Of a DNA stretch of 64,000 nt, positions 16,709-50,675 are shown piece after piece (position 1 is the first letter of the stretch; every line of letters begins with the position of its first letter). A program made the position numbers and the translations under genes. The notes beneath the pieces are model-generated. The model was not told the origin of the DNA. It saw only the letters and a program-made list of their open reading frames with translations, and did not search any database. This DNA is from a virus. The stretch spans positions 1-64,000 of IMG/VR virus record IMGVR_UViG_3300049830_000285; one strand, written 5' to 3'.

Positions 16709-17155
16709 ATGATGAATCATAATATTTGGATAAAAATAGCTAACATAGCGGATACGTTAGATAAGCAAGGTTTTTTTAAAGAAGCTGATGACTTAGATAG
16801 CGTGCTCAGAACAGCACAATATTATGTAAATCCTGGTGTCGTTCCCATTGATGACCGGATGATTCCTGGTGATGAAGTTTTTCCAGAAGCCGAAGAAAGC
16901 GAACAATTGCGTATGAAAAACATGGGCAGATATCGTGTTCCTGAATATTCATCCCTCCCTGGCGGCGATAATCCAGCATCTGAGAAAGGTAACAACATTT
17001 TCAATATGGATGGAACAGATAATATCGACGGTTTTGCACAAGTGGACGAATTCCCGTCGCCAAGTATGGACGGAAACACCAAAGCATATGAGTGGGACAA
17101 CTATCGTGGAGAAAATTCTCAACCGCCATACACCAAGCTAATGCCAAGAGGTTAG
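16709..17155 (+). CDS. Hypothetical protein with N-terminal shared helical tag
   Basis: IANIADTLDKQGFFKEADDLD followed by RTAQ. Confidence 0.65.
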   Translation: MMNHNIWIKIANIADTLDKQGFFKEADDLDSVLRTAQYYVNPGVVPIDDRMIPGDEVFPEAEESEQLRMKNMGRYRVPEYSSLPGGDNPASEKGNNIFNMDGTDNIDGFAQVDEFPSPSMDGNTKAYEWDNYRGENSQPPYTKLMPRG

Positions 17156-17209
17156 TTTTTCAAAAAGGTAAAACACACATTTTTCATTAAATAAGCAATA
17201 GAGGAAATC

Positions 17210-17737
17210 ATGCCACAACCAATCATTCCTATTCATCAAATGAACAATCTTGATTCTTTATTCGTTAGAGAATCTGAATCAGAAAATTACGACCATTTAC
17301 TAGGTTCGTTAAGCGCTATGCAGCAGCAATTAATGGGCGGCGCAGCAAGCGAAAAAACGGCGGCGCGATATAGTGACAACATGGTTAATCACCTTGAGGC
17401 TATCTCCCAAGAAGAAGAAGAATTATTAACGGTGGCTAACTCAATGATTTCCGTTGGGCGAACTGGACAAACATATTATCGTGTTCCAAAAACAATATCT
17501 GACTCGGAATTAATTGGCTTAAAGACTCAGGGATTGGTTGTTGGAAGCGGCAGGGTTGTTGCATTTACAGACCGAGCTAAGGTGGCGCTTCGCGAAAGAT
17601 GGCTGATTGCTGAAAACACTTTGAAGAAAAATCGCGTTAAAGATGGTTTCGACCATCCTATGAAAACTGCGGAAACTTCTGATAAATTTACACGAACATC
17701 TGAAAGAAAAAGAAAAATTATTGTATCAGAGGAGTAA
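17210..17737 (+). CDS. Hypothetical protein (head module)
   Basis: 175-aa ORF with GAGGA RBS. Confidence 0.65.
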   Translation: MPQPIIPIHQMNNLDSLFVRESESENYDHLLGSLSAMQQQLMGGAASEKTAARYSDNMVNHLEAISQEEEELLTVANSMISVGRTGQTYYRVPKTISDSELIGLKTQGLVVGSGRVVAFTDRAKVALRERWLIAENTLKKNRVKDGFDHPMKTAETSDKFTRTSERKRKIIVSEE

Positions 17738-17738
17738 C

Positions 17739-18551
17739 ATGACTAAAATGATTAATGGTGTGCCTCTTCAAGCGCATGCTGAATCTATTGCTAAAACAAT
17801 GCATGAATTAGCGCAATGGAGTAAAGCACACCCAAATTCAAGAAAATATCACCGCAACTTAATCAAGCTGCCGCCTGTGTTTTTGTTGAATAATGATAGT
17901 CACGGCGACGGATTACAAAATTTGATTGCCATAATCAAAACGATTGGAGACTATGAAGATGGCGATATTAACGGCAATTATCCAAAATTAGCCGACCTAC
18001 CAGATATCTACAATGCATACAGCGGTAAGCCAGTGCTATCTAATAAGGATTTGCGAAAAATCCACAATTGGGTTCAACAAGTTAGCTTCGGCATTCGTGC
18101 AGCTATTATGGAGCAAGAAGAGCAAAAGCCGCTTTTTGCAGATTGGGATAAGTTTACTACACCCGAGCGAGTTTTTCGAAGACTGTATTTACACAACCAC
18201 AGACGTTCATTTATCACATGTTCTCCGACTAATAAAAATGAATACAAGCCATTAAGATATGCAGATGAAACCATTAAGATGAAATTAATCGAACAAGAAT
18301 ATGAACAACGTCGAAATAAAAAATCATCTACCAAGTATGGTGCTAAGCTAACAAATCAAGAATGGCAACAATACGGATTATCTGGACAACCTGTAAGACA
18401 TATGCGAAAAGAAATAGAAGAAAAGATATCAGTTTTACTCACGCTTGCTGAAAAACACGACATTGATGGTGAATATGAGCAGGCAGATGGCATTACGCAG
18501 AGAATAAATAATATGAATGCCGAATTAGCAACGCTGGAAAGTAGAACCTAA
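17739..18551 (+). CDS. Hypothetical protein with C-terminal shared helical tag
   Basis: GAGGAG RBS before ATG 17739; ends LLTLAEKHDIDGEYEQADGIT. Confidence 0.65.
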   Translation: MTKMINGVPLQAHAESIAKTMHELAQWSKAHPNSRKYHRNLIKLPPVFLLNNDSHGDGLQNLIAIIKTIGDYEDGDINGNYPKLADLPDIYNAYSGKPVLSNKDLRKIHNWVQQVSFGIRAAIMEQEEQKPLFADWDKFTTPERVFRRLYLHNHRRSFITCSPTNKNEYKPLRYADETIKMKLIEQEYEQRRNKKSSTKYGAKLTNQEWQQYGLSGQPVRHMRKEIEEKISVLLTLAEKHDIDGEYEQADGITQRINNMNAELATLESRT

Positions 18552-18564
18552 TGGAGACAAGTTA

Positions 18565-21033
18565 ATGAAGTTTTTAAGATTGAATGAATATCACCCGGTG
18601 CGAACAGCAGAGGTTATCGAAGCGCTAAGCGTTTATGACATATTGCATGAAATACGCAATGAAATCCGAGCTGCAAAGGCGAACGGGCGTGTTATTACGG
18701 CTTCAATGAACCTCTTTAGCTTAAAAATTGCAAAAACAATAGAAAGTCAATCGAGCACGACGACGCTTTTGTCAAACATGGCAGAAGAATTAGCACATAT
18801 TAAGGCGAAAAACCCAGACCCCGAAGGACAAAAACAAGCTATTTCCAGTTGGCTTTTTGGCCCACGTGGACATTGGACTTTTCTGTGGGAGTCGCTTTAT
18901 GAAAATTATTTACCGCGCTTAACTAAAGCTTTAGTGAGAGGATTCGGCGGCACACCTCCTGTTGATGAAGAGGCTGCCAACGATATTGCCATGAAAGCAA
19001 TTGGTGAGTTCATGGAGCAAAAAGATAGCGCCTCCGTGGTTTCAGCGTTAGCTCAATTTGATTCATCCAAAGGCTCTTTGATGACATGGCTTGAGGGTGG
19101 TATACGATGGACAACTCAGCGAATGGTTAGGAATCATCTTAAATTACAGAATAGCGAAACTAGCACAAATCAAAAAATTGGTGATAATGATGATACCGAA
19201 ATGGGAGAAATGCTTCCAGACAAGAGTGCCGAAGACCCATTTGATATTGTTGATTATACTGAAAAAACAGATAGGCTCATTTCAACATTTGCGCGTTACA
19301 GAAGAACACTGAAAGAGCAAATCGAGCACTCTGACAATCCAGCAGAAAAATTTAAGCTTCAGAATCTTTTGCAGCATATCAGCAATCCCGCAAATGATGT
19401 TTCTCAAAAAATCGCAACATTGAAAAACACAGCAACTGATATTGATATAATTAATGATGAATTAGCTGATACAAAAAGCGAAAAACAAAAATTATTTTCC
19501 ACTCTAAGTGGAAAAAACCCAGACGCTAATACACTTAATATGGCTAAAACATATATTGAGAAATTCAAACAGAAAATTATCAAGCTAAACACAGCGATGG
19601 AAAAGAAAGTTGAAGCTTTTAATGCAATTTATTCTGAATTAAATGACATGGCACAATATGATGCAGAAACTGGCGCAACTCGAATTGAACCAGAGATGCC
19701 TGCACCAGCGCCAATGCAACAAGAAGTTGCGCCTGGGGTAGAGGCTGAGCCAGGAGAAATGGCACCAGAACAATCTCCGATTGTAGATGAACCCATGATG
19801 CGAACCAAGGCGATTGGTAATCGTGTTATTTTAAGCCCTGCTGACCAAAAAATAATGGAAGATAGAATGCGGGCTTCTCGCGATAAATTGAGACCAGAAA
19901 TCTATCGGTCGGTGTCTTTTCCTGACAAGAAAAGAGATTTAAAACAACGTTCTAATAATTTATTTAATCTAAAAGAGGTTTCAGATAATATTACAACACA
20001 AGATGATTTAGACCACTTGATTCAAGGCGACTTTTCCAAAGCATCTGTGCAAGCAATATATTCTGACATTTTTGTGCGCGGCATGTTATATGTTAGAGAC
20101 CAGGCAGCAATGGATAAAGCTTATTCCCCTGAAATTATTTCCGACTCTGAAGAAATGCGAAGGGCTTTAAGTAAGTTTAGTGATTTTGTAATCAACGAGG
20201 TAAACAATAATCCAAATTTACAAGCAAAAGAAGCTGAATATAAATCTTTACCAGCTCAAGAACAAATTCAAGTTGCTTCAAGTTTGAACAATCTATCACC
20301 TGTGGGTTATGTATTACATAGTTTGAAAAAATTAGTTGACGATGACGAAATAAAAAAAGACGGAACAATAAAAACTCAAGCAGGAAAGGAAAACAAATTT
20401 AGAACATTGTATGAATATTTCGACCATGCGGCTCGTGCGTCTGCATATGGAGCTTATAAAGATGAAGCGCTTAAAGACGAAAATTGGGAAAAATTAACAG
20501 ACGAAGAAAAAGCTATACGAATCGAAGAATTTAAGAAAAGAGGATTTGATGATTTGACAGACGAAGAACGAGCACGAATTTCTAAAAAAGTTTATGAAGA
20601 CCAATATGGTGCTGGGCATCGAGGAATGTCTACAGGAAGATTACGAGATAAAAGTATAGAAACAAAGAAATTTGAACCAAGATATCCACAGAAACCGGAT
20701 ACCGATGGAAGTAGATATCAAGAAATTATGAATAGAGAGCTGTGGAGAATTGGGCGAGAGAAAGCAAGGGGAAATCCGATAAATGCGCCCAGATATCCTG
20801 ATGAACAACATCATCAATATCGAAACCCAGCTTGGGGCACGGATAGTTGGTATGAAATTTCTGACAATCCTGAGGATTTTAAGAATGCAAACAAGCCACA
20901 AAAAGGAGACACACTGGCTCAATCTGGTGTTATTGAATTTCTTCTTAGAATTGCAAATGAATTTGATAATCACGGTTTTTATCGAGAAGCCGAAATGACA
21001 AATAATGATATTAAGCGTTTAATTCATGGATAA
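18565..21033 (+). CDS. Large protein with sigma-70 region 2/3.2-like domain and C-terminal shared tag; probable virion-packaged protein
   Basis: LYENYLPRL..., FDSSKGSLMTWL...IRW, STNQKIGDNDDTEMGEMLPD; ends LLRIANEFDNHGFYREAE. Confidence 0.65.
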   Translation: MKFLRLNEYHPVRTAEVIEALSVYDILHEIRNEIRAAKANGRVITASMNLFSLKIAKTIESQSSTTTLLSNMAEELAHIKAKNPDPEGQKQAISSWLFGPRGHWTFLWESLYENYLPRLTKALVRGFGGTPPVDEEAANDIAMKAIGEFMEQKDSASVVSALAQFDSSKGSLMTWLEGGIRWTTQRMVRNHLKLQNSETSTNQKIGDNDDTEMGEMLPDKSAEDPFDIVDYTEKTDRLISTFARYRRTLKEQIEHSDNPAEKFKLQNLLQHISNPANDVSQKIATLKNTATDIDIINDELADTKSEKQKLFSTLSGKNPDANTLNMAKTYIEKFKQKIIKLNTAMEKKVEAFNAIYSELNDMAQYDAETGATRIEPEMPAPAPMQQEVAPGVEAEPGEMAPEQSPIVDEPMMRTKAIGNRVILSPADQKIMEDRMRASRDKLRPEIYRSVSFPDKKRDLKQRSNNLFNLKEVSDNITTQDDLDHLIQGDFSKASVQAIYSDIFVRGMLYVRDQAAMDKAYSPEIISDSEEMRRALSKFSDFVINEVNNNPNLQAKEAEYKSLPAQEQIQVASSLNNLSPVGYVLHSLKKLVDDDEIKKDGTIKTQAGKENKFRTLYEYFDHAARASAYGAYKDEALKDENWEKLTDEEKAIRIEEFKKRGFDDLTDEERARISKKVYEDQYGAGHRGMSTGRLRDKSIETKKFEPRYPQKPDTDGSRYQEIMNRELWRIGREKARGNPINAPRYPDEQHHQYRNPAWGTDSWYEISDNPEDFKNANKPQKGDTLAQSGVIEFLLRIANEFDNHGFYREAEMTNNDIKRLIHG

Positions 21034-21400
21034 GCAAGCTGAGTTTAGGGTTCGATTTGTCGCCAATAACATTGCTGACAGAACGAAGGGGTTAATGTTC
21101 GCATCTCCGTTGGATGATGATGAAGTGGCTTTATTTGTTTTTCCATACAGCGATAGATATGGATTTTGGAATAAAAATGTATCATTTCGGTTAAGTTTGG
21201 CTTTTCTAGATGAAAACCAAAAGATTGTAGATATTAAAGATTTAGAGGCACAATCTCACGCATTGGTATCTCCAGACCATGATGCAAAATATGTTGTTGA
21301 GGCACAAAGTGGTGCATTTGACAGACTAGGAATTAAAACTGGCGACTTTTTGGTGTTTGACGCAAGTCAAAATAAACTAAAAACAATAAAAAAAGCTTAA
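21026..21400 (+). CDS. DUF192 family protein
   Basis: RTKGLMF, FWNKNV.F.L.LAF.D and YVVE motifs. Confidence 0.85.
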   Translation: MDKQAEFRVRFVANNIADRTKGLMFASPLDDDEVALFVFPYSDRYGFWNKNVSFRLSLAFLDENQKIVDIKDLEAQSHALVSPDHDAKYVVEAQSGAFDRLGIKTGDFLVFDASQNKLKTIKKA

Positions 21401-26269: not shown

Positions 26270-26800
26270 ATGTGGTATCGACAGGCTCAGGGTTTTGGTG
26301 GGGGAGTTTTAAGTCCCGTTGAAGTTGCTATTCAACGGGCTTTATCTCCCAATTCTGCATCATCCGTGACGCCAGATGCCTCAATTATTCCCGCACAAGA
26401 TGGCCAGGTTGAATCAACCGATAATCAAGAGCAATCACCCATGAATGAAAACCCAGATGCTTATGAGCAAAGGATTTGGGATACATTAGTAAATCGAACC
26501 GATGGTGCGCAGGCAGATGGTGTGAGTGTTGATGGTGGAAAAATAAGTGGCGATGGCGGGGCTGTTGAAGCAGGCGATGCCCGAAGATTATCACCTTTTC
26601 ATCAGAATCCAGAAGAAACCACAATGGAAGAGCAGTTAGAGTCTGTTCGTCAACAAAATGTCAACACTGACCCAACACAATCTATGTCTTCAACTGAAAA
26701 CAGTAGAGGTAACGAATTGGTTCGGGGTGAATTCCCACATGCATCTGGAAAAGGTTGGAATGGTTATGAAGATTTGCCCTCAGATAAAAGCTGGGCTTAA
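26270..26800 (+). CDS. Hypothetical protein with MWYxxAQ N-terminus
   Basis: Starts MWYRQAQ, remainder disordered; immediately upstream of the portal. Confidence 0.6.
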   Translation: MWYRQAQGFGGGVLSPVEVAIQRALSPNSASSVTPDASIIPAQDGQVESTDNQEQSPMNENPDAYEQRIWDTLVNRTDGAQADGVSVDGGKISGDGGAVEAGDARRLSPFHQNPEETTMEEQLESVRQQNVNTDPTQSMSSTENSRGNELVRGEFPHASGKGWNGYEDLPSDKSWA

Positions 26801-26837: not shown

Positions 26838-29270
26838 ATGGCTAATAATAATAACAAAGCGGAGGGACTAGACGTTGCAATTGCGTCAGCAGCAAGAGAA
26901 GCTCTTGGTAAAAAGTCCACCCGTACCGCAGCAAGCACAACCCCACCTGGTGCGAATTCTTCAGAACATGTTCCACTTCCGGGTGTCCGAACGGGGCGCA
27001 TGGATGGAACGGTTACCAGGCGAATGGGGCAGTTCTCGGGCGGTGGTAGTAATACCAGCTTAGGGCCACCATCATTTTACGCACCATGGTTAACCGCATC
27101 TTCTTGGCAAATACCCAATAATAGAAAGGAAATCTATTTATGGGCACAATGGTGGGTTGATAACGAACCTAAAGTTGCCGCTGGTATTGAATTTTACACA
27201 GATTTTCCATTAAGTGGCTTTACACTTGAATGCCCAAATGCTTATGTTAAAGATTACTTTGAGAAGTTGAACAAAAAGCTGAAAATCAGTAAGAAAAATC
27301 CGCAAATTTCTCAAGAATATCATCTTAGGGGAGATTGTTTTGTTTTAGCCTCGCTAGAGTGCGAAAAATGTGGTGGAATGAATGAAGACCCCGATACGGG
27401 TGAACCGTGTAAACACGAAGGCGCTTCGTGGAAGGGATTGTCAATTTTAAATCCAGACCACATTGAAGTTCATCCAGCTATGCTCGACCAAGAGCCAGAA
27501 TATTTCTTCTTACCAGATGATATGATGAAAAAAGTAGTTCAGGAAAGAAGACCTGAAAAACTTTATAATTCAATGAGACCAGAAATGCGAAAGCTGATTT
27601 TAAGCGGTCAGCCAATTCATTTCTCTCCAGAATGTATTTATCACTTTAAGCGCGGCGGTCAACCCTGGCAGCCATTTGGTACCTCTCTTTTGCGTCGATT
27701 GTTCCAGACTCTTGCTTATAAGGATAAATTGCGTCAAGCTCAATGGTTGGTTGCAGAACGACACATCATTCCTATTAAAATCGTTAAGATTGGTGATAAA
27801 GACCGACCCGCAACAGAAGAAGATTTGATTGATGCACAAGACGAGCTTACAGCCCTCGCAAATGACCCTCTTCTTACTATTGTAACTCACCACGCATTTG
27901 ATTTTGATTATGTTGGCGCAAGCGGTAAGGTGCTGCAACTAACAAATGAATATGAAAATCTAAACCAAGATATTATTGATGGCTTGATGTTAAATAAAGC
28001 TATTATTAATGGCGAAGGGCCGTCATATAGTAATGCTCAAGTTGGATTGCTTACAATGGCTAAAAGACTTGAAAGATTCCGAGAAGAAGTGGCATTCTGG
28101 ATGGAAGAGCATCTTTATAAACCAGTTGCTATGTGGAACGGATTTACCACAGAAGGTAAGCGTGGTCAAATCGAATATGTTTACCCGACAGTAAAATTTG
28201 ATGATTTGCAATTACGAGATGACACCGGAAAGTTACAAACACTATTAGCTGCAAATCAGGCTGGTATTGTTTCAAATCAATCTGTTGTTGAAGCTTTGGG
28301 ATTACCATATGACCAAGAAGTTGAAAGACTTAGATTTGAACAAGGTTCTTCATTTATATCTTCACCAGACTTAATGAACACTGACATGAATAATGGATTT
28401 GGTCAAGGCGCGGGCGGCATGGGCAACGGCTTCCGTGGCCCAATTCCAGGGGCTCCGGGTGGTGCTCCAGGTGGCGCATCTCCAAGTGCCCCGATGGGAG
28501 CACCAGATATGGGCGGCATGCCTGGTTTGGCACCAGCAGCGAGTAATGACTGGAAAGCTAATTATAGATTTGCTTCCACGGTCAGCGGGGATATGTATGA
28601 TGTTCAATTGGCAACATGTCAAAATGAGCGCATTATTCGAACAGCTAGTAGAAAAATTCTCAGTCAAGCACATAAGGAATACATTGAAAGCATCGCACCA
28701 GTAACGGGAAGAGGCGCTTTGGGCGCTCTAGATATAGAGCCAAATGATGTATTTTCACAACTTGCTTTTGGGCCGAATGATGGTGGGCCGTTCTGTACTG
28801 CTATGAATAGAGCAGCTATGTATGAGATTATTCAATTTGATAAAGAAATGACTAATCGAGGCATGGTAAGAACTGGCGCTAAGAAAGGTGAAACCAAGCA
28901 AACATATCGCTTTACATCATTGGAACAAAAGCTATATCGACTCTTAATGCAAGCTGGATTACCTTTTGCCTGGTATGCACAGTATCTTGCTGGGCCGATG
29001 ACACAGCACTTCGAATATCAACTAGATGCCGCTATCCCAGCTATTAAATTGGGATTGGAAGCGGACGGTGAAATCTATCATAGTAATCCTGAAAAAATTG
29101 CTAAAGATAGAAAACGAGACTCATTACTAGCAACACAAGGTTGGACAATACTTCGTTTCACTGAAAGCGAATTAAATGAACATCCAGAAGAAGTGTTAAA
29201 AGTTATTATGCAAATGATTAGAAGGCTGATGGGCGCTGGCGAACATGTCGGTTCTACCGTTATTTTGTAA
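26838..29270 (+). CDS. Portal protein fused to a C-terminal DUF559/Vsr-like endonuclease domain
   Basis: Portal-type core (PFGTSLL, HIIPIKIVKIG, NAQVGL) directly upstream of the protease. After a Gly/Pro linker comes LEQKL..., YQLDAAIP..KLGLEADGEIYH...DRKRD.LL..QGWTILRF. Confidence 0.8.
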   Translation: MANNNNKAEGLDVAIASAAREALGKKSTRTAASTTPPGANSSEHVPLPGVRTGRMDGTVTRRMGQFSGGGSNTSLGPPSFYAPWLTASSWQIPNNRKEIYLWAQWWVDNEPKVAAGIEFYTDFPLSGFTLECPNAYVKDYFEKLNKKLKISKKNPQISQEYHLRGDCFVLASLECEKCGGMNEDPDTGEPCKHEGASWKGLSILNPDHIEVHPAMLDQEPEYFFLPDDMMKKVVQERRPEKLYNSMRPEMRKLILSGQPIHFSPECIYHFKRGGQPWQPFGTSLLRRLFQTLAYKDKLRQAQWLVAERHIIPIKIVKIGDKDRPATEEDLIDAQDELTALANDPLLTIVTHHAFDFDYVGASGKVLQLTNEYENLNQDIIDGLMLNKAIINGEGPSYSNAQVGLLTMAKRLERFREEVAFWMEEHLYKPVAMWNGFTTEGKRGQIEYVYPTVKFDDLQLRDDTGKLQTLLAANQAGIVSNQSVVEALGLPYDQEVERLRFEQGSSFISSPDLMNTDMNNGFGQGAGGMGNGFRGPIPGAPGGAPGGASPSAPMGAPDMGGMPGLAPAASNDWKANYRFASTVSGDMYDVQLATCQNERIIRTASRKILSQAHKEYIESIAPVTGRGALGALDIEPNDVFSQLAFGPNDGGPFCTAMNRAAMYEIIQFDKEMTNRGMVRTGAKKGETKQTYRFTSLEQKLYRLLMQAGLPFAWYAQYLAGPMTQHFEYQLDAAIPAIKLGLEADGEIYHSNPEKIAKDRKRDSLLATQGWTILRFTESELNEHPEEVLKVIMQMIRRLMGAGEHVGSTVIL

Positions 29271-29443
29271 AAGTATTCTTTAGCAGGTGTTAGAGAATAC
29301 TTCACCAAATAAATGAATACAATAGCTTCAAAAACATCTTAATTTTTTGAAAAACTAAAGGTATCAGCCCAATTCTTGCAGAAATGCTCTATTAGACTGA
29401 TTTTCAAAAAACTTGAAGCGAAAAACAGGAGAAAGCCAACATT

Positions 29444-32400
29444 ATGATGGAAAGACAAGGCAAATCAGGCGGATTCATTACGATAAGTAGTCTGATTATG
29501 AGTGAGGATAGAAAGAAAGCTGTTCCGCAGCGTCTTGCTATGGCTTCAGGTTCTGCTATGCGAATGGCAGCAAAAGAGGGTCTTTTAAGTTTATATGCTG
29601 ATGCAGATGATGTATTAGATAAATATAAAGATTTCGATATCGCCGCTTCTATGCGCGAACACAAAGGAAAATTACTGTGGGTGAGAGCGCGAGCTATTGA
29701 CGCAGATGTTGCTAACGCAAACGGTGATTATTTCAGTGAAAAGGAATTGCTTGGTGAGGTTGTTGACCAAAAGGGTAACAAAATGCCAGCCTACAAAACG
29801 TTTGAAGGCGTTCCGATTTACACAAACCACAAAAATGATGATATTGAACAAGCCAAGGGTATGGTTGTTTATGCCGAATGGGATGAAAAAGAAAAATGTG
29901 TTTATTGTACATTTATCGTAGACGAAGAAGCATATCCTGAAATTGCACGTGGTATTCGAGTTGGATATATGCATGATGTCTCAATGGGATGTCAAGTTGA
30001 ATCCGGTACATGTTCTGAGTGCGAAAATAAAGCATCAACAGAAAAAGAATATTGTGATTGTCTTAAAAAGTATAAAGGCAAAAAGCATCCCAAAACTGGT
30101 AAAAAGGTTTACGAAAAAAATCATGGTATCAAATTTATTGAACTTTCTGTTGTTGGTGACGGCGCTTTCGATAGTTGTATGATTGAAGAAATCTACGATG
30201 TAGATGATATTCTAAACAAAGCTGCTAATCTTGACAAAAGAGCAGAGTCAATCAGAAGTTCAATCATTGTCGCAAGTACATCCACTCCAAAAGACTTCAT
30301 GGTACGAAGAGCATATGAAGATTGTCTTCGTACTGCATATGATACAACTAAGCAGACTATTCGTGTAGCACAAAGTGCTGGCACGTTAGTTGGCGGTCAA
30401 TTGCTTGCTGGAGAGGGAGCGGGAAATAACACTACAGTTTCCAACATCTTGAAGTTCCTTGGTATTGAAGGTACCGCAGGATTGAATATTCTTGATATGT
30501 TGAACTTAGCGCTCAACTTTTTGGAAGTTGCCGTTATGAATCTTTTCGCTAGAAAAGATAATGTAGATTTGGCACACGTTGGCAAAATCACTAAATCTAT
30601 GGCTGATTTACAATCAACCATGCAAGATATGATTGATGATGGAGTCGAAACAGGCGGAAATGGTCAGCAACCTATGAATCAAGGTTCAATGCAGCCACCA
30701 CAAGAAGCACAACCAGGTGGTCAAACTCCACAAGACGATTATTCACAGGGCGCAGTAGGGCGCTCAATGGGGCCTCAAGCTCCACAGGGCGCACCTCAAG
30801 GTGGCGCACCTCAAACACAGAATCAGGCATTCCAGGGAATGCCGATGGGATTTGGTGGTGGTATTTTTGCCAACAGCAATTTCAACCGCGTAGTTTGGGC
30901 ACATGATGATGAGGAAGAGGTTTCTAGCAGAACTGTCACGGCAGCTACTATGCGAGAAACAAATGAATCATTTGAAATGAGCCCTGCGACTTACAACAGT
31001 AAGTCCGTGACAAAGTTGGCAGAATCTATTATGAGTCTAGCTGACACGCTTGGTGTATCAACTCATCAAGCAACCCCAAATCCAGTAGTGGCATCAAAAC
31101 CACTGCCAAACAAACCAAGCACCCAGACCGGAGGAAATAAAACAATGAGCATTGACTTTTTCAAGCAGTTCAAACAGTCTCGCAATAAGCGAGAGGCCGC
31201 GGTGATGGAGCAGGAAGTCAAGGTTTCTGATAAATCAGGACATCAACTTCGGCTCTCCGCTGACGGTAGCATCAAGGCATATTATCAAGGACAACTTGTT
31301 CCTGATTTTGACCCAATTCTTACAGAAGAGCACAAAGCAGCTATTGAAGCTGAAGACGGCCCTCGCGTAGCCGCCGCCCTTTTATCAGATTTTCAGAGAT
31401 TTACTCGAACTGCTGAGTGGAAACCATCTCATGAATACAATGAAACACGAGAAGAACAATTAGAAGCAGTTCGAACTGGAACTGACGATGATGTGAAAGA
31501 AAATCTTCTTGGTGATAAAGCTGGTCGATATAATCGAACCAACGAAGAGCAAGATATCAAAGAAAGAGAGCTTGGTAAGAAAGATTTGCGACCTGGCACC
31601 GACGATGAGGTAAAAGAAAATCTTCTTGGTGACAAAGCTGGATTGTATTCTCGACAGAACAATGAAATTGATGTTCGAGAGAATTTAATCAATGACGCTC
31701 GACGTGGGCACCCTGTCGATGTTATTGAACTCCAACTTGACCAAGTTCGAAAGAATTACGGGCCTGGTGACACTGGTTTGGTTACAACTGCGAGTGTTGA
31801 TGCTTTGTGCAAAGCTGTTATTGCTGCACGAGTAACTCCAGAAGAAGTTGTTGAAGCAACTCAAGTGCTTGCTGAAAGAGCTGATTTCGTTGAATTGCTT
31901 CAACTTGCTCACCTTGGTGATAAAACTCGCCGCGTTGAAGCAAAGCGAAATGATTTCTGGAAACTTGGTAGCACCGAAATTGCTGCTGAAGCTGCTGTAC
32001 TTGACGCTCTTGGAACTGCTGTAACTAATGAAATTACTGCTGCTGACATTGCAGAATGTCTTCATGTTGTAACATCAGAAGTAAGCAAGGCTATTCAGTC
32101 AGTTACTCGAATGGTTAAAGCTCATATAGGAGACAACTCTGGTGTCGAACCTTCTATGTTGCGCAAGACAGTTTCTAAAGCTGACAAATATCGCGCAGCT
32201 TTGGCTACCATTGCCGAAACTGAAACCGAACAACCGATGAAAGACCATATCAAAACAGCTTTGTTTGCTTTTGCAAATGCCGCTGACGAATTGGCTGCTC
32301 ATCCACATGAAATTGTTGCTGCTTTATCAAGTGTTGAAGAATCTGATTTGCTCGCAGACATGGAGCTTGCTCGTTCTGCCGCAGTTCGCGCTTCTCGATT

Positions 32401-35830: not shown

Positions 35831-36508
35831 ATGGCTATTCGACCACTATTCGAACTCATTCAAGGAAACTTCGAAATGAGCAAATCAGTTACCTGCTTGG
35901 CAGGTGACGCCTTAGTCCGCAGCCCATATACTGGACTCTGCATTGTTGCAGACCGTTCTTTGGTTGCAACTGCATACAACTCGGGCACAGGTGCCTTCAG
36001 CCACACAGCGCATACATTTGTAGGCTTTGCTGCTGATGACCACGCTCGAACTGGTGCAACGATGATTCTGCCTGACCCAGTTGGTTCAACTGTTGTTAGC
36101 TCAGATGGTAGCACGTTCACTGCTTCTAACAACGGTTTCTATGCTGTTGCAAAGCGAGCTTTGGGCGATTTCGTTGACGAACTCGTAACTAACGTTTCTG
36201 ACCCAACTAGTGGTTCCACTGGTTATCAGGGCCCACGCCGAGGTATTGGTGTTTACACCTCTCCTTCAGGTCAATTCGTTACAGACCGATTCGTTGCTGT
36301 TATTACAACTGCTGCAAGCACCGACGACACCAACCCATACACATTCTTGCCAGGTGACTACTTGACATTCGGTGCGACCGCAAATGCTGGAAAGCTTGTT
36401 GCTATCGACCGAGCCAACCCAACCTTCGGTGAACCCGTTGCTAAAGTTGACAAGTACGACGCTACCGCAGGATTGCTGTACTTCACACAAATCGGAGCTA
36501 TTAACTAA
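35831..36508 (+). CDS. Probable capsid decoration/cement protein
   Basis: 225 aa, beta-rich, strong AGGAGG RBS, directly before the MCP gene. Confidence 0.55.
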   Translation: MAIRPLFELIQGNFEMSKSVTCLAGDALVRSPYTGLCIVADRSLVATAYNSGTGAFSHTAHTFVGFAADDHARTGATMILPDPVGSTVVSSDGSTFTASNNGFYAVAKRALGDFVDELVTNVSDPTSGSTGYQGPRRGIGVYTSPSGQFVTDRFVAVITTAASTDDTNPYTFLPGDYLTFGATANAGKLVAIDRANPTFGEPVAKVDKYDATAGLLYFTQIGAIN

Positions 36509-36546: not shown

Positions 36547-37407
36547 ATGAGCATGGTACGAAACAATCGAAACACCAATGAGCAAAGAGAAGCTATTATT
36601 GCAATGGCTCTTGACACCGCCGATGGACGTGTTGCTCTCGCGCAAGCGATGGTGGAACCCATCAAAACAAGCTTGATGTATCAAGCAATCGGACGTAAGC
36701 TTTTGATGGTAGACGAATTGCCTCAAGGCGCTCTCCCACGATACGAACGAGATGTGGCTGTGAAGTCATATGTCATTCCAAAGCGTGGTATGGTTCCAAC
36801 TCACGTAGTTGAAGCTGAAGAGTTGTTAATCCCAGTTGTTGAGTTGGCTACCAACCCTACAATCAAGATTAACGAAATCAACCAACGACGATACTACATC
36901 GTTGACCGAGCGCAAGTTCGTGCAAAGGATAGTATCCAACGACAAGAAGACGTTGAAGTGTTCAAGGTCATCAACGCCGCAGTTCCTACCGACCACAGCA
37001 TTGCTGTTGCTGGTACATTGCAGCCAGAAAACATCAACCTCGCGTTGACGTTGATTGAAGAGCACGAATTGATTGGCGCAAAGGTCATTATGCACCCACA
37101 GCGCTACAAGGACGTTCGAGACTGGGGTAAGGATTTCTTCGACGAGGCAACTCAACGAGACATCTTGATGACTGGTCTTTACGGTCACATCTACTCTGCG
37201 GACATCCATGTTTCGACAATGGTTCCAAAGAACGCTGTGTACGTGCTTGCACCTGCGCAGTTCGTAGGCGCGATGCCTGTTCGACAGGACATCACTGTTC
37301 TTCCTGCTGACGACCCTAAGAAGCTTCGACTTGGTTGGGTTGTTTTCGAAGAAGTTGGCTTCGGTGTTATAAACGACTACGCGATTAGTCGAATCATCGT
37401 TAGCTAA
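36547..37407 (+). CDS. Major capsid protein (compact HK97-fold type)
   Basis: GRVALAQAMVEPI, VDELPQGALPRYERD, QRQED, GWVVFEEVG; highly biased codons; followed by a strong terminator. Confidence 0.85.
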   Translation: MSMVRNNRNTNEQREAIIAMALDTADGRVALAQAMVEPIKTSLMYQAIGRKLLMVDELPQGALPRYERDVAVKSYVIPKRGMVPTHVVEAEELLIPVVELATNPTIKINEINQRRYYIVDRAQVRAKDSIQRQEDVEVFKVINAAVPTDHSIAVAGTLQPENINLALTLIEEHELIGAKVIMHPQRYKDVRDWGKDFFDEATQRDILMTGLYGHIYSADIHVSTMVPKNAVYVLAPAQFVGAMPVRQDITVLPADDPKKLRLGWVVFEEVGFGVINDYAISRIIVS

Positions 37408-44348: not shown

Positions 44349-44359
44349 CTCAAATTTAT

Positions 44360-45745: not shown

Positions 45746-45796
45746 CAAAAGGAATAATGCTGCCGATTGGAGAAAAAATCTTTAATCGGTGGCATT

Positions 45797-46426
45797 ATGC
45801 GTTTATCCCTGGCAAAAAAACTTCTGAAAATAGCTAACGAACTCGACGCGCTCAGTTTGTATGAAGAAGCAAATTCCTTAACAAATATAGTGAGAGAAGC
45901 ACAAACTATGCCTGATATGTCTCAGACCCAAGCACCAACACAGCCATATCAACAGCCATATCAACAGCAACCTTGGACTGCTCCCGCCGCCGCACCAACA
46001 CCCTACAACGCTCCTCAAGCTCCCTACAACGCTCCATACAACGGTTATGCACAACAACAGAGTGGATGGTATAACCAACCTCAAATACCGCTGCCTCCGC
46101 AGAATAACGTAAATCCACAACAGACACAGCAACAACTGTTAAATATGCCAGCTAGTCCATTTACGGCAGTTAGGTTTGGGCCAGATGGTAAACCTCTTCC
46201 GCAACAAAGACAGCAGACAATGCAAGAATATGTAAACAACTATATCAAATCTATGCAAAGCAAAATGCAAGGTCAGGGTCAATCTGGCGCAAATAATACG
46301 ATTCAAAACGCTAGACAAATGCAGATTCAACAACGAAGAAATGAATTAGCTGCCGAAGATGCTCAATTGGCGTCAGAGCAATACAATCAAAATCTTGGTG
46401 ACGGACATCCAAAATTATATAAGTAA
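45797..46426 (+). CDS. Gln/Pro-rich protein with N-terminal shared helical tag
   Basis: LLKIANELDALSLYEEANSLT followed by VREAQ, then a low-complexity Q/P/Y body. Confidence 0.65.
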   Translation: MRLSLAKKLLKIANELDALSLYEEANSLTNIVREAQTMPDMSQTQAPTQPYQQPYQQQPWTAPAAAPTPYNAPQAPYNAPYNGYAQQQSGWYNQPQIPLPPQNNVNPQQTQQQLLNMPASPFTAVRFGPDGKPLPQQRQQTMQEYVNNYIKSMQSKMQGQGQSGANNTIQNARQMQIQQRRNELAAEDAQLASEQYNQNLGDGHPKLYK

Positions 46427-47570: not shown

Positions 47571-47584
47571 TCTTCATCGTCAAT

Positions 47585-47620: not shown

Positions 47621-47728
47621 GTATTAAGGTATTTTTAATGTCGCAAATTGCTCTTAAATAGTATAGGAATTTTTGAAATTCTACATAAATATTCCATAGG
47701 TGGTGCTACGAACACCACTTTTACTAAC

Positions 47729-48799
47729 ATGACAATAGCTCTATGCGGATTTTATGCTAAATACAATTTTGGAGATGACTTGATGGCTCATCATCTTTCC
47801 AGGGTGCTATCTGTTGACGACACACATACTGTTAGAATTTTTTCAGATAAAAGTCTTGATAATGTAGAAAATGGTATGGCGTCCAATGGTCATTTAGATT
47901 GTGATGTTATTGTTATCGGTGGCGGCGGAATCGTCAACAATGATTTTTGGGCATTCAAAAATGATGGATTGATAAAACTCAAAAATGCACAAAAGCCCAT
48001 CGCATTTGTCAATGTAAATATTACGAGCGAGATTTTGAAAGATTCACAACTGATTGAGGATTTAAAATCTCTAAAAGCCAAATGGTGGGTTAGAAATAGA
48101 CAATCTGTGGATATTTTAACAGAAATCGGCATCACAGCATCACTTGTGCCAGATATCAGTTTTAGGCCAGGTGTCGTAACGCCATATAATAAAATGGCTG
48201 GAAAGAAACAATTATCAGTATTCTTAAACAGTTATGTATTTAACGACTTGCTTCATAACGACAATGTAAATCAATTTGTTCAAGCATTGCATAACTGTCG
48301 AATTATAGCTCAATTTTGTGATTGGATGGCAACTTTTGGTTGGAATATAACGTTCTTTTCGGCTCACACAGCTAAGTATGTTGATGACCGAATTCCATCT
48401 GCCTTTGTCTTTGGAACGATGCAAAATAAAGATGCAGCTAAATGGGTTGCAGAACCATTGGCATGGGATGACTTGATAAGAGAAATAGCACACAGTGATT
48501 TGGTGCTATCTATGCGTTTTCACTCAACAACAACGGCGTTGGCAGCAGGAGTTCCGTGTGTAGACATTACTCATCATGCAAAGAATAAATCTTTGCTTGA
48601 TGAAATTGGCGCACTATGTATTTCGGCTGAATATTCTTCACTTACACACGAGGCTCTTGTAAAAGCAGCGCAATGTGCAGAAAACCCAACATCTCATGAT
48701 AATAGAGTAAAAGCTTATCGCTCTGAAGCTGCTACTCGTTGGGAGTTATTTGACCGAGAATGGAGCACATACTTAAACAATCTAGAAGGATTACAATGA
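47729..48799 (+). CDS. Polysaccharide pyruvyl transferase family protein
   Basis: CGFYAKYNFGDD, VIGGGGI, VRNRQS, VPDISF, SMRFHS motifs. Confidence 0.85.
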   Translation: MTIALCGFYAKYNFGDDLMAHHLSRVLSVDDTHTVRIFSDKSLDNVENGMASNGHLDCDVIVIGGGGIVNNDFWAFKNDGLIKLKNAQKPIAFVNVNITSEILKDSQLIEDLKSLKAKWWVRNRQSVDILTEIGITASLVPDISFRPGVVTPYNKMAGKKQLSVFLNSYVFNDLLHNDNVNQFVQALHNCRIIAQFCDWMATFGWNITFFSAHTAKYVDDRIPSAFVFGTMQNKDAAKWVAEPLAWDDLIREIAHSDLVLSMRFHSTTTALAAGVPCVDITHHAKNKSLLDEIGALCISAEYSSLTHEALVKAAQCAENPTSHDNRVKAYRSEAATRWELFDREWSTYLNNLEGLQ

Positions 48800-50214
48800 A
48801 CAACAACGACCACCACAACAAAGAAAATTTCTCAACAAAACTGCTAAGGGAAATGTGGGAATTTATATTTCACAAACACGATTCCCCCCATTGTGGTTGC
48901 CCTCCTCACTGCGGCGAACCCCCTCATTGTGGCGAACCCCCTCACTGCGGTTGTCCCCCTGACGGTGGCGGCATAAACATTGGTTGTGCTTTTGCTTTAT
49001 TTTTGTTTTGGTTTTGGCTGCCAGTGATGATGTTTGTTATGAAACTTGGAAGTAAATCAAATAAAAAAAAAGATGAAGAAATTAAAGTAAAGCCAAAAGT
49101 TGCTTTTATTAGTGTTTATAACACTCCATGCGGTATATCAACATACAACGAACAATTGATAAAACAATTGAGAAAGCATGCTGATGTTCATGTGTTCGCT
49201 GAATATGCCGATGATGAAAAAAATATCAGCATAGAAGGCGACCCCGATTTTGTAACTCGTTGTTGGAGTCGGACTGAGCACCCTAAAACAAAATTAATGT
49301 TTGCAGTGGATAACTGGAAACCAGATTTGATTCATTTTGGTCATGAATATGGTTTTTTTGCCAAAGCCTATTTGTTCACGTCTCTTGTTTCTTGGTTCAA
49401 AGCACACAAATATATTGTTATAGCAACAATGCATTCTATTTATGAGCACAGAGATAAAACTGTTCAAGAGGCGAGTGGTCAAATTATTATCACACATACA
49501 GAGTCTGGTAAAAAATGTCTAACAGATAAAGGAATAGACCCGTCTATTATCACCGTCATTCCACATGGCTCCAATGTTTTAGATGGTGATGCTGGTAATC
49601 CGAAGTTACTACCAGCACTCTGGAACACATGGCAGAACGAACATACAATTTTTCAACCCGGTTTTCTGTTTGACTACAAGGGTCATATTAGGATGCTTGG
49701 TGTGATAGCTGAGTTGAAAGAAAAATACCCAGATATTCATTACATTATTCAAGGTTCTGAAAACCCAAATAACATGAAGGAACACGACAGGGTATTTCAA
49801 CGATTAGTTTCAGAATGTAAACGATTGAATATAGAGGAAAACGTTACCATCAATCGAGGCTTTGTGAGCGAAGATGTATTGATGTCGTTTGTTCGCACCA
49901 CCAAAGTATGTGTTTTGCCATATATTAGCCATCCCGAGCACGATGTTTGCTCTACATCTGGTATTGCCAGAGTAGTAGTCGGGACTGAAATACCGCTAAT
50001 CACAACCAAAGTACATCTTTTTGATGATGTTGCTGGCATAGCCACTCAAGTAGGGAATGACCATGAACTGTATAATGCTATTGATGATGTATTTAGCAAC
50101 CCGCAAGCGCAAGGCGCTGCGAACAATGCTCGCGTGGAATTTTTGAAACAAACCAATTGGGATAATGTTGCAAAAATGCACTTTGACTTGTATACAAAGG
50201 TTATAAAGGGCTAA
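48796..50214 (+). CDS. GT-B glycosyltransferase (family 4-like) with N-terminal His/Cys repeat and TM helix
   Basis: PCGISTY, TMHS, IPHG, GFL..YKG, VLPY, SG..R motifs; hydrophobic AFALFLFWFWLPVMMFVM. Confidence 0.8.
   Translation: MNNNDHHNKENFSTKLLREMWEFIFHKHDSPHCGCPPHCGEPPHCGEPPHCGCPPDGGGINIGCAFALFLFWFWLPVMMFVMKLGSKSNKKKDEEIKVKPKVAFISVYNTPCGISTYNEQLIKQLRKHADVHVFAEYADDEKNISIEGDPDFVTRCWSRTEHPKTKLMFAVDNWKPDLIHFGHEYGFFAKAYLFTSLVSWFKAHKYIVIATMHSIYEHRDKTVQEASGQIIITHTESGKKCLTDKGIDPSIITVIPHGSNVLDGDAGNPKLLPALWNTWQNEHTIFQPGFLFDYKGHIRMLGVIAELKEKYPDIHYIIQGSENPNNMKEHDRVFQRLVSECKRLNIEENVTINRGFVSEDVLMSFVRTTKVCVLPYISHPEHDVCSTSGIARVVVGTEIPLITTKVHLFDDVAGIATQVGNDHELYNAIDDVFSNPQAQGAANNARVEFLKQTNWDNVAKMHFDLYTKVIKG
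48886..48957 (+). repeat. 4 x 18-bp coding repeat encoding PHCG(C/E)P
   Basis: PHCGCP PHCGEP PHCGEP PHCGCP. Confidence 0.9.
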
Positions 50215-50240
50215 AACATGAAATATTGTGTGGTGATGTC

Positions 50241-50675
50241 ATGAAAAGAAAAGAAGTTATTGCTACGTTGATTCATATTTCTGATGATTTAGATAGCATG
50301 GGAATGTTTGATGATGCAGATTCGCTAACCCGTTTTGCACAAGCTTGGGGCGAATTAGGGATGCACGATGTAGAATCGAATCCAGATAACGATGCCGCAG
50401 AGCATGGATTTATGGGCGAGCATCAATATGAACAAGAGCAAAAATTAATGAATGAAATGAACAATGAAGATGCATTGATGACTCTTGATGCACGCATTAA
50501 GGAACTTCAACATAAACCAGCTCCAACAATGGAAGAAATTCACGAATTAGAATCTCTGTTGGATTATCGAATGGGCGACGGATTTGATTCTTCAAATGTA
50601 TCTTCTCCGCACAAACACGATGAATCCGGTTTTGTCAATGAATTGCAAAACGCGGGCGCTAAAGTAATTAACTAA
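50241..50675 (+). CDS. Hypothetical protein with N-terminal shared helical tag
   Basis: LIHISDDLDSMGMFDDADSLT followed by RFAQ. Confidence 0.65.
   Translation: MKRKEVIATLIHISDDLDSMGMFDDADSLTRFAQAWGELGMHDVESNPDNDAAEHGFMGEHQYEQEQKLMNEMNNEDALMTLDARIKELQHKPAPTMEEIHELESLLDYRMGDGFDSSNVSSPHKHDESGFVNELQNAGAKVIN

What the first reader, a model, noticed from the sequence alone, without database searches (positions are those of the whole stretch)
16736..50343. Shared ~22-aa terminal tag on five unrelated proteins: candidate modular capsid cargo-loading system
Aligned copies: IANIADTLDKQGFFKEADDLD-SVLRTAQ (16736-16819, N-term), LLTLAEKHDIDGEYEQADGIT (18435-18500, C-term), LLRIANEFDNHGFYREAEMTN (20941-21003, C-term), LLKIANELDALSLYEEANSLT-NIVREAQ (45821-45904, N-term) and LIHISDDLDSMGMFDDADSLT-RFAQ (50268-50343, N-term). 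The rest of each protein is dissimilar, and two of the genes lie far from the head operon. All three N-terminal copies are followed by R-x-A-Q. One C-terminal copy is preceded by a weaker TLAQ. The tagged genes at 16709, 45797 and 50241 have exact or near late-promoter motifs. T4 capsid-targeting sequences removed by gp21 are the established precedent. Inference: a portable helical hairpin docks cargo into the prohead, and the protease then frees the cargo for ejection.
Basis: partly seen in the sequence, partly recalled or inferred. Interest (0 to 1): 0.88.

Follow-up and report, generated by a model that had tools for sequence, protein, structure and literature searches.

The report
Portable hairpin tag on huge-phage proteins
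A large uncultured freshwater phage puts the same small, self-folding two-helix module on at least eight otherwise unrelated late proteins, probably as an address label for the assembling phage head, but where the label sends them has not been shown.

Summary
The window is the first 64 kb of a 177.7-kb fragment (about 47% complete) of a huge phage whose capsid protein is 47% identical to that of Bacillus phage G. All five copies are where stated. Three more lie outside the window, giving six N-terminal and two C-terminal tags.

The tag is an undescribed, confidently predicted helical hairpin of about 38 residues. It has no Pfam, PHROGs, NCBIfam or PDB sequence match. It occurs in 1,061 protein clusters (50% identity), with one to three copies per protein.

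Evidence for a head-assembly role:
- Three tagged genes sit in a conserved block between terminase and portal.
- Every tag transcription unit starts with a spacing-specific promoter-like motif, also found before the head-protease gene and the tail operon.
- R-x-A-Q is specifically over-represented in proteins of the first 75 kb (head and tail modules), and some sites are conserved in orthologues.

Evidence against:
- The tag profile cross-hits cellular TPR_10/12 repeats.
- The Q is not conserved across the tag family.
- Complete relatives with 56-62% capsid identity, and phage G, have no tags.
- Most tagged genes in relatives lie far from head genes.

Packaging and cleavage are untested. This scan has already found similar hairpin tags in at least eight other huge-phage genomes, and this same motif in one.

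The parts
16709..17155 (+). 148-aa protein. N-terminal hairpin tag (aa 1-37, nt 16709-16819) ends in L-R-T-A-Q and is followed by Y-Y. The body is disorder-rich and acidic.
   Evidence: Orthologues in G008 and G005 keep the tag and the junction (RIAQYV, KFAQYY).
17210..17737 (+). 175-aa untagged protein between tagged genes, a candidate partner by co-occurrence only.
   Evidence: Homologues are present in all 7 tag-positive near-complete relatives, absent from G017, G018 and phage G, and marginal in G019. It is syntenic next to tagged genes. No Pfam or PHROG match.
17721..18551 (+). 276-aa protein (270 aa from the ATG at 17739) with a C-terminal hairpin tag (nt 18417-18530).
   Evidence: Orthologues at 33-44% identity in G008 and G013 keep the C-terminal tag.
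18565..21033 (+). 822-aa protein with a sub-threshold sigma-70 region-3-like stretch (aa 185-227) and a C-terminal hairpin tag (nt 20920-21027), preceded by TLAQ.
   Evidence: The positional equivalents in G008 (802 aa) and G013 (775 aa) have no BLAST similarity in the body. G013's keeps a C-terminal hairpin by HMM (E 0.012); G008's is recognisable only by eye.
45797..46426 (+). 209-aa Q/P-rich protein with an N-terminal hairpin tag (nt 45797-45904) ending V-R-E-A-Q.
   Evidence: The orthologue P0012 has K-E-A-Q.
50241..50675 (+). 144-aa acidic protein with an N-terminal hairpin tag (nt 50241-50343) ending T-R-F-A-Q.
   Evidence: The orthologues P0010 and P0019 have RFAQFFGE and KTAESFGD.
16676..16701 (+). 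Promoter-like motif AAGG-N18-AGAA, 7 nt before the 16709 start.
45749..45774 (+). Promoter-like motif AAGG-N18-AGAA, 22 nt before the 45797 start.
50197..50222 (+). Promoter-like motif AAGG-N18-TGAA, 18 nt before the 50241 start.
29358..29383 (+). The same promoter-like motif, 60 nt before the protease polyprotein gene.
29444..33760 (+). 1438-aa polyprotein with an N-terminal head-maturation-protease-like domain (aa 84-246) and four R-x-A-Q sites (aa 307, 1187, 1197, 1370).
   Evidence: phrog_18299, E 3e-19. Sites. The site at aa 307 (IRVAQSAGTLV) is conserved as IRLAQQAGTLV in G005.
26838..29270 (+). Portal protein with a C-terminal restriction-endonuclease-like domain.
   Evidence: Portal_Mu and phrog_16240, E 3e-36; MTES_1575/DUF559 at aa 726-794.
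33935..35794 (+). 619-aa acidic scaffold-like protein in the canonical scaffold position. It has the relaxed form of the promoter motif upstream.
   Evidence: Position only; no family hit.
35831..36508 (+). 225-aa protein in the position of the phage G gp26 capsid decoration protein.
   Evidence: Position only.
36547..37407 (+). Major capsid protein.
   Evidence: phrog_2522, E 6.5e-67. It is 47% identical to Bacillus phage G gp27.
12529..13692 (+). 387-aa protein: a zinc-ribbon-like N-terminus, then the junction DNIRIAQFGGATGG (aa 47-60), then a long disorder-rich tail. No hairpin.
   Evidence: The G005 orthologue begins MSENIRIAQFGG.
26270..26800 (+). 176-aa acidic protein beginning MWYRQAQGFGGG: a different leader with the same kind of junction.
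   Evidence: The relatives have MWYRKVVSFGGG and WYRLSQKTLGIGGG, so the A-Q is not conserved here.

Best explanation
The shared element is a self-folding antiparallel helical hairpin of about 38 residues. Its pattern is L-x-K-[IL]-A-N-x-L-D-x-x-G-x-[YFH]-x-E-A-[DN]-x-[LIV]-[TD]-x-[VI]-[MI]-[KR]-[KR]-[LI]-A. I read it as a portable protein-protein docking module. This lineage of huge phages, related to Bacillus phage G, fuses it to the N-terminus, C-terminus or interior of many fast-evolving proteins.

In this phage at least eight late-expressed proteins carry it. Most likely it recruits them to one common partner during head assembly: the scaffold or core, or the inner face of the shell. In this phage the N-terminal tags end in [ILV]-R-x-A-Q, which is probably the recognition site of the head-maturation protease, so the tag would be clipped off after docking.

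Shown here:
- the module, its fold prediction and its modularity;
- its wide distribution;
- its co-regulation motif;
- its place in a conserved terminase-to-portal gene block;
- the enrichment of R-x-A-Q.

Inferred only: the partner, entry into the prohead, cleavage, and any ejection into the host.
For: 1. Real and modular. There are eight copies in the contig, on bodies with no mutual similarity. The library of 50%-identity representatives holds 1,061 clusters at E<=1e-3. Of 124 tagged proteins scanned, only singletons carry any Pfam domain: FHA, AP2, ferritin-like, ATP-grasp, sigma region 3 and zinc ribbons.

2. Independent fold. In the AF2 model of the 130976 protein, residues 1-40 have pLDDT 92-98, with helices at 3-19 and 23-38. 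Residues 45-85 fall below 50.

3. Selection on the tag alone. The large C-tagged protein has no BLAST-detectable body similarity between relatives (822, 802 and 775 aa). The G013 equivalent keeps a C-terminal hairpin by HMM (E 0.012). The G008 one is tag-like only by eye, with no HMM hit.

4. Head context. The block TerL, 12529, N-tag, 17210, C-tag, C-tag, DUF192 and onward to portal, protease, scaffold-like, decoration-like and MCP is conserved in G008 and G013. G005 has it without the two C-tag genes. In L010 a tagged gene lies two genes upstream of TerL and the portal.

5. Co-regulation. AAGG-N18-NGAA precedes 9 of 209 genes. These are five tagged genes (one at the head of every tag transcription unit), the protease polyprotein, the first gene of the tail operon, and two others. 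Other spacers give 0-3 genes.

6. Junction. R-x-A-Q in non-tag proteins of the first 75 kb is 16 observed against 3.4 expected (P 7e-7). The rest of the contig has 1 against 3.6. Seven scrambled or substituted control tetrapeptides are not enriched. It remains 13 against 3.4 (P 6e-5) after removing the dUTPase family motif, the portal site that is conserved even in phage G, and one doubtful ORF extension.

7. Junction conservation. Sites are conserved in orthologues: RTAQYY, RIAQYV and KFAQYY in one family; DNIRIAQFGG and MSENIRIAQFGG in another; IRVAQSAGTLV and IRLAQQAGTLV in the protease polyprotein. Helix B ends exactly at the Q.
Against: - No direct evidence of virion association exists.
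- The tag profile cross-hits cellular TPR_10/TPR_12 repeats, and viral proteins carry tandem copies. The hairpins may therefore pack on one another rather than on a capsid protein.
- Across 226 copies the residue after [KR]-x-[AS] is variable (Q 30, E 22, K 19, D 18). Tags in close relatives end in Q, M, I, E, D, S or K. Cleavage at A-Q cannot be general.
- Complete G-like genomes with 56-62% MCP identity (460-488 kb), phage G, LR745208.1 and Tunturi_5 have no tags. A conserved feature of the shell is therefore unlikely to be the receptor.
- In complete relatives most tagged genes lie in arrays far from the head module, among homing-endonuclease genes.
- Six of the eight bodies are short, disorder-rich, mostly acidic tails, which is unusual for ejected effectors.
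- Some R-x-A-Q hits are ordinary family motifs (dUTPase, portal).
Confidence: 0.45

Rival explanations
1. The hairpin is a homotypic or heterotypic association module. Single TPR-like hairpins from different proteins stack on each other, so tagged proteins co-assemble into one multi-protein body. That body could be a matrix or condensate of acidic disordered tails. It need not be inside the capsid and need not involve cleavage.
For: - The profile cross-hits TPR_10/12 with the same residue spacing.
- Natural viral proteins carry 2-3 hairpins, some directly tandem with a 33-46 residue period (P0042, P0033, P0027, P0036).
- The bodies are disorder-rich and acidic.
- Tags occur at either end or internally.
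Against: - AF2 of the three-hairpin protein P0033 gave only pLDDT 63.5, and no fold match with E<2. Stacking is therefore not shown.
- No Pfam TPR model hits any of the 124 tagged proteins at E<=1e-3, nor the two typed consensus tags and eight multi-hairpin proteins at E<=10.
- It does not explain the promoter shared with the protease gene and the tail operon, or the conserved place in the TerL-portal block. It is, however, compatible with those, and with the best explanation if the co-assembly is the prohead core.
Confidence: 0.2
2. The tag addresses cargo to another part of the virion or another machine. Candidates are the tail lumen or baseplate, as with N-terminal payload signals of contractile injection systems served by an AAA+ ATPase, or the capsid exterior, as docked decoration or fibre proteins.
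For: - The promoter motif also heads the tail operon (63902, minus strand).
- The gene at 50241 abuts the tail module.
- An AAA gene exists at 2421-3563.
Against: - The only AAA gene in the contig is neither next to tail genes nor next to tagged genes.
- Three tagged genes sit in the head block, not the tail block.
- No tagged body resembles a fibre or decoration fold, though this was not tested structurally.
Confidence: 0.15
3. The tag binds a host or phage intracellular hub, such as RNA polymerase. It would bring diverse small modulators, and the sigma-like 822-aa protein, to that hub with no role in the particle.
For: - The 822-aa protein has a near-threshold sigma-70 region-3 match and lacks an evident region 4, with the hairpin at its C-terminus.
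- Many tagged genes in relatives lie in hypervariable arrays typical of host-interaction genes.
Against: - The promoter class is shared with structural genes, which suggests late rather than early expression.
- The tagged genes sit in a conserved head-block position.
- The sigma-like match is below Pfam's cut-off (24.8 against 25.3 bits).
Confidence: 0.1

Closest known systems
Capsid targeting sequence (CTS) of phage T4 internal proteins IPI, IPII, IPIII and Alt, removed by the prohead protease gp21 (Mullaney and Black 1996, as reviewed in PMC9026906)
   Same: A conserved terminal leader sits on otherwise divergent, fast-evolving proteins. The genes are partly in variable arrays. A head-maturation protease is encoded nearby. 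A short motif at the end of the leader is also enriched in head proteins.
   Different: The T4 CTS is a 10-19 residue N-terminal peptide ending in L/I-x-E. Here the element is a 38-residue folded hairpin that also occurs C-terminally, internally and in tandem. The putative site is [RK]-x-A-Q and is not conserved across the tag family. There is no sequence similarity. Packaging is proven for T4 and untested here.
N-terminal propeptides of head and ejection proteins in phiKZ-like giant phages (SPN3US gp245 substrates; PMC10052503, PMC7411985)
   Same: The setting is a giant phage with many internal head proteins. The protease motif recurs in several head proteins and in the protease itself, which auto-cleaves.
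   Different: Those propeptides are 20-254 residues and are not a shared portable module. Their cleavage is after Glu. The capsid lineage is different (phiKZ-like against G-like).
TPR_10 / TPR_12 tetratricopeptide repeats (PF13374, PF13424)
   Same: The residue spacing is identical: L-x-x-[LI]-A-x-x-[LY]-x-x-x-G-x-Y-x-E-A. The fold is helix-turn-helix. The tag profile scores such repeats in cellular proteins. Tandem copies have a period near 34 residues in some viral proteins.
   Different: No Pfam TPR model hits any tagged viral protein at the thresholds used. Most proteins carry a single copy, whereas TPR domains need three or more. Helix B is longer. L-D replaces the usual aromatic residue.
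C-terminal helix-turn-helix coat-binding domain of P22-type scaffolding proteins (from general knowledge, not tested here)
   Same: It is a small terminal helical hairpin that docks a largely extended or disordered acidic protein to the inside of a procapsid. Two tagged proteins here carry the hairpin C-terminally and lie in the head block.
   Different: No sequence or discriminating structural match was obtained; the hairpin matches generic alpha-hairpins at Z 6-7. Here the same hairpin sits on many proteins and mostly at the N-terminus.
N-terminal packaging signals of extracellular contractile injection system payloads
   Same: It is a shared N-terminal address on unrelated payloads of a phage-tail-like particle.
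   Different: Those signals are disordered peptides read by a dedicated AAA+ ATPase encoded in the cluster. Here the tag is folded, and no AAA+ gene is linked to the tags or the tail genes.

Membership tests
T4-type capsid targeting sequence (CTS) | Short (10-19 residue) N-terminal propeptide | tested here: not met
   The element is about 38 residues, is predicted as a folded hairpin, and also occurs C-terminally and internally.
T4-type capsid targeting sequence (CTS) | Leader conserved while the mature parts are unrelated | tested here: met
   No pairwise similarity among the eight bodies. Only singleton Pfam domains among 124 tagged proteins.
T4-type capsid targeting sequence (CTS) | Leader ends at the prohead-protease cleavage motif and is removed | tested here: inconclusive
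   R-x-A-Q ends four of six N-terminal tags. It is enriched in proteins of the first 75 kb (16 against 3.4) and conserved in some orthologues. The Q is not conserved family-wide. Cleavage itself is not testable with these tools.
T4-type capsid targeting sequence (CTS) | Leader is sufficient to direct a protein into the prohead | not testable with these tools
   This needs fusion and encapsidation experiments.
TPR repeat (Pfam TPR clan; TPR_10/TPR_12) | Match to a curated TPR model at or above its cut-off | tested here: not met
   No TPR family for the window proteins at E<=0.1. None for the two typed consensus tags and eight multi-hairpin proteins at E<=10. None for the 124 tagged proteins at E<=1e-3. 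One weak TPR_2 hit (E 0.007) falls on the tag of P0055.
TPR repeat (Pfam TPR clan; TPR_10/TPR_12) | Helix-turn-helix of about 34 residues with the TPR residue pattern | tested here: inconclusive
   The tag profile hits cellular TPR_10/12 proteins over 3-9 stretches, and the spacing is identical by inspection. The fold search finds only generic alpha-hairpins, TPRs among them, at Z 6-7.
TPR repeat (Pfam TPR clan; TPR_10/TPR_12) | Three or more tandem repeats forming a superhelix | tested here: not met
   All eight proteins of this phage have one copy. Among the 165 database proteins with tag-domain hits, 89 have a single N-terminal copy. A minority have 2-3 copies.
Scaffolding-protein coat-binding helix-turn-helix (P22 type) | Terminal hairpin that binds the coat protein | not testable with these tools
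There is no discriminating fold match.
eCIS-type payload signal with dedicated AAA+ ATPase | AAA+ ATPase gene linked to the tail or payload cluster | tested here: not met
   PF00004 finds a single AAA gene in the contig, at 2583-2984 (ORF 2421-3563). It is not adjacent to tail genes or tags. The contig is only 47% complete, so absence elsewhere is not shown.

The most novel reading that the evidence does not exclude
A widespread, uncatalogued, self-folding hairpin domain is the address label by which a clade of huge phages loads a changing repertoire of proteins into the prohead. These include a sigma-like factor and many disordered acidic proteins. A head protease that cuts after [RK]-x-A-Q then releases them. 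This would be a structurally distinct, domain-based counterpart of the T4 CTS, and it could serve as a programmable protein-packaging tag.
Probability: 0.35. Interest if true: 0.8.

Novelty: new variant of a known kind. Interest (0 to 1): 0.62.

Why it matters
If the hairpin is a head-loading address, it would show that huge phages outside the T4 and phiKZ groups evolved their own modular system for packing proteins next to the DNA. The system would rest on a folded domain, not a short peptide.

It would assign a role to more than a thousand clusters of proteins without annotation in environmental phage genomes. It would also offer a portable tag for loading chosen proteins into large capsids.

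The [RK]-x-A-Q motif would give the first handle on the specificity of the maturation protease in the phage G lineage. Even if the destination is different, a single docking module shared by this many unrelated late proteins points to an unknown hub in huge-phage biology.

Tried and rejected
- **tblastn of two typed consensus tags against 50,697 phage records.** No meaningful hit.
- **tblastn of the 822-aa protein against the phage collection and against 11 related records.** Nothing found.
- **PDB sequence search with the tag profile.** Nothing below E 1.
- **AF2 of the three-hairpin protein P0033.** Low confidence (pLDDT 63.5). Foldseek against the PDB gave no match with E<2.
- **Foldseek against BFVD, and VIA-wide, with the 130976 protein model.** Only generic alpha-hairpins at Z 6-7, so no fold family can be assigned.
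- **ESM Atlas search.** Only unnamed viral clusters, all scoring under 0.9.
- **Literature word search for the motif letters.** One unrelated paper.
- **Sequencing runs.** No RNA holder is listed; there are four freshwater DNA metagenome runs from three studies.
- **A tag inside the protease polyprotein.** There is a look-alike by eye in G004 and a half-match in the window. Neither is significant by HMM (iE 2), and the regions do not align. Rejected.
- **Genome-wide count of the promoter pattern.** It equals chance (22 against 24.9 in shuffles). Only its position before genes and its spacer specificity carry weight.

Full report
**What the DNA is.** The window is the first 64 kb of a single 177,708-bp viral contig with 40% G+C. 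CheckV rates it 47% complete. Its major capsid protein (36547-37407) matches phrog_2522 at E 6.5e-67 and is 47% identical to gp27 of Bacillus phage G. Hundreds of close relatives exist on environmental contigs of up to 0.42-0.49 Mb. The holders in public runs are freshwater metagenomes. It is therefore a fragment of a huge, uncultured, G-like phage.

**Head module.** The genes run in this order:
- TerL, 10343-12517.
- Portal, 26838-29270.
- A 1438-aa polyprotein whose N-terminal part matches a head-maturation protease family (phrog_18299, E 3e-19).
- An acidic scaffold-like 619-aa protein.
- A 225-aa protein in the position of phage G's decoration protein.
- The MCP.

An HMM built from them finds three more in the same contig, all N-terminal, at 130976(+), 130402(+) and 88173(-). 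A family HMM built from 216 viral copies recovers exactly these eight and nothing else. The eight bodies have no detectable similarity to one another. The six N-tagged bodies are short and rich in disorder-promoting residues. Four of these six carry 19-27% Asp plus Glu and net charges of -10 to -31.

**What the element is.**
- *Distribution.* A profile search of 1.84 billion representatives finds 1,061 clusters at E<=1e-3. Most are small proteins (median 147 aa) that start with the tag, typically MNKKQ...
- *Copy number.* Among the 165 retrieved proteins with tag-domain hits, about 60 viral ones carry two or three copies, N-terminal, internal or C-terminal. A few are directly tandem with a 33-46 residue period.
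- *Fold.* AlphaFold2 with a 124-sequence alignment predicts residues 1-40 of the 130976 protein at pLDDT 92-98, as helix 3-19, a turn and helix 23-38. A segment below 50 follows.
- *Databases.* Pfam, PHROGs and NCBIfam do not know it. The PDB holds no sequence relative. Fold searches return only generic alpha-hairpins.
- *TPR resemblance.* The one known resemblance is to TPR_10/TPR_12 repeats. The tag profile scores cellular proteins made of these repeats over several stretches each, and the residue spacing is the same. No TPR model detects the viral proteins in return. I therefore call it TPR-like in pattern and do not file it as a TPR.

**Evidence that it is selected as a module.** The gene order TerL, 12529, N-tagged 16709, 17210, C-tagged 276-aa, C-tagged 822-aa, DUF192, 21405, 22796, 23705, 24750, 26270, portal is conserved. 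It appears in relatives G008 and G013, whose MCPs are 83% and 72% identical. G005 (85%) has the block without the two C-tagged genes.

The 276-aa orthologues (33-44% identity) keep the C-terminal hairpin. The large protein after it is 822, 802 or 775 aa and has no BLAST-detectable similarity between genomes. In G013 it still ends in a hairpin by HMM (E 0.012). In G008 the ending is tag-like only by eye.

Elsewhere, tagged genes form tandem arrays of three to seven small genes among homing-endonuclease genes. This is the pattern of a diversifying family with a fixed handle.

**Link to virion assembly.** This evidence is indirect, but there are several lines of it.
1. Three tagged genes lie in the conserved terminase-to-portal block.
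2. In a more distant phage (L010) a tagged gene lies two genes upstream of TerL, portal, protease and MCP.
3. The pattern AAGG-N18-NGAA is no more frequent genome-wide than chance (22 against 24.9). It does, however, lie within 110 nt upstream of nine genes, against 0-3 for any other spacer from 15 to 21. Five of the nine are tagged genes, one at the head of every tag transcription unit. The others include the protease polyprotein and the first gene of the tail operon (P 2e-6). A relaxed form precedes the scaffold-like gene. In relatives, the first gene of a tag array carries the pattern.

*In this contig.*
- In non-tag proteins of the first 75 kb it occurs 16 times against 3.4 expected from each protein's own composition (P 7e-7).
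- In the rest of the contig it occurs once against 3.6.
- Q.AR, QA.R, RA.Q, R.AE, R.AN, R.SQ and R.GQ show no excess.
- Three hits are better explained otherwise: the dUTPase GDRIAQ motif, a portal site that is also present in phage G and G004, and a doubtful ORF extension. Without them the count is 13 against 3.4 (P 6e-5).
- Four sites lie in the protease polyprotein.

*Conservation in orthologues.*
- IRVAQSAGTLV in the window corresponds to IRLAQQAGTLV in G005.
- The 16709 family has RTAQYY, RIAQYV and KFAQYY.
- The 12529 family has DNIRIAQFGG after a zinc ribbon in this phage, but MSENIRIAQFGG at the very N-terminus in G005.

*Related observations.*
- An aromatic residue and glycines often follow the motif, and it also closes other leaders (MWYRQAQGFGGG at 26270).
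- K-x-A-Q is enriched in the AT-rich tag-bearing contigs G004, G001 and G002, but not in G003 or the phage G head locus.
- In the model, helix B ends exactly at the Q.

All this fits a maturation-protease site, by analogy with T4 gp21 and SPN3US gp245 (PMC9026906, PMC10052503). Against it as a property of the tag: the residue after [KR]-x-[AS] is variable across 226 copies and in close relatives. At best this phage has made its tags cleavable.

**Limits on the capsid-docking reading.**
- Tag number falls with MCP distance. Genomes with 83% or higher MCP identity have 7-11 tags. Those at 70-78% have 3-4. Three complete 460-488-kb genomes at 56-62% have none. Phage G, LR745208.1 and Tunturi_5 also have none. 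The positive control recovers all eight in the window's contig.
- The receptor is therefore not a universally conserved shell feature.
- The untagged 175-aa 17210 protein co-occurs with the tags and sits among them. That pattern is confounded by phylogeny.
- Tandem hairpins and the TPR-like pattern leave open that tags bind each other.

**Verdict.** It is an undescribed portable hairpin domain on late proteins of a huge-phage clade, probably a docking or address module tied to head assembly, with a plausible protease junction in this phage. The destination and the cleavage are unproven.

This scan has already reported comparable hairpin tags in at least eight other huge-phage genomes and this same motif in another genome. 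This case is therefore one more member of a recurring and still unpublished theme. I found no paper describing it.

Noticed in passing
window 43328-43402 and 44261-44349: ARAGORN calls a tRNA with anticodon CTA, labelled Pyl, which would read amber codons. It also calls an 89-nt tRNA-Phe with the unusual anticodon AAA. Whether the phage reads TAG as sense was not examined; the ORFs used here are open under table 11.
   Followed up: no
window 26838-29270: The portal protein carries a C-terminal domain (aa 726-794) that matches the restriction-endonuclease-like families MTES_1575 and DUF559. This fusion is unusual for a portal.
   Followed up: no
G000 contig 65880-66365 (minus strand, just beyond the window): The 161-aa protein has an N-terminus (IERIASKLESINHPRAKELRRIAQFFGDTG) that looks like a divergent hairpin with the same R-I-A-Q-F-F-G junction. 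The tag HMMs do not detect it, so the tagged set may be larger than eight.
   Followed up: partly
window 12529-13692 and 26270-26800: Two further late proteins have different leaders, a zinc ribbon and MWY. Each is followed by R-x-A-Q, then glycines, then a long disorder-rich tail, the same architecture as the hairpin-tagged proteins. In G013 the 26270 position is occupied by a hairpin-tagged 117-aa gene instead.
   Followed up: partly
window 15590-16696 and 47648-50214: A gene that looks from its sequence like an FAD-dependent UDP-galactopyranose mutase lies directly upstream of the tagged gene at 16709. This is my reading; no family search was run on it. Two genes that look like glycosyltransferases, also by my reading of the sequence, lie directly upstream of the tagged gene at 50241. 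The second has a HCG(C/E)PP repeat and a hydrophobic segment. The first is absent from the same block in G005, so it is probably an insertion.
   Followed up: partly
P0034, P0036, P0081, P0105 (database proteins, not in the window): This is a family with a conserved unannotated N-terminal domain (DQHGIFQHFQ...LSTRYSPDR.GVQ...DPYTNKIYDYN.GFKTEDGR.FPGGS) followed by two or three hairpin tags. It has no Pfam or PHROG match.
   Followed up: partly
window 21026-21400: A DUF192 (PF02643, E 2e-21) gene is a conserved member of the terminase-to-portal block in this phage, at 53-57% identity in G008, G005 and G013. Its role in head assembly is unknown.
   Followed up: partly
P0031 (database protein): This is a 673-aa protein with an N-terminal ferritin-like domain and two hairpin tags. 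It recalls ferritin-like cargo of encapsulins, but it may be a fused gene call.
   Followed up: no
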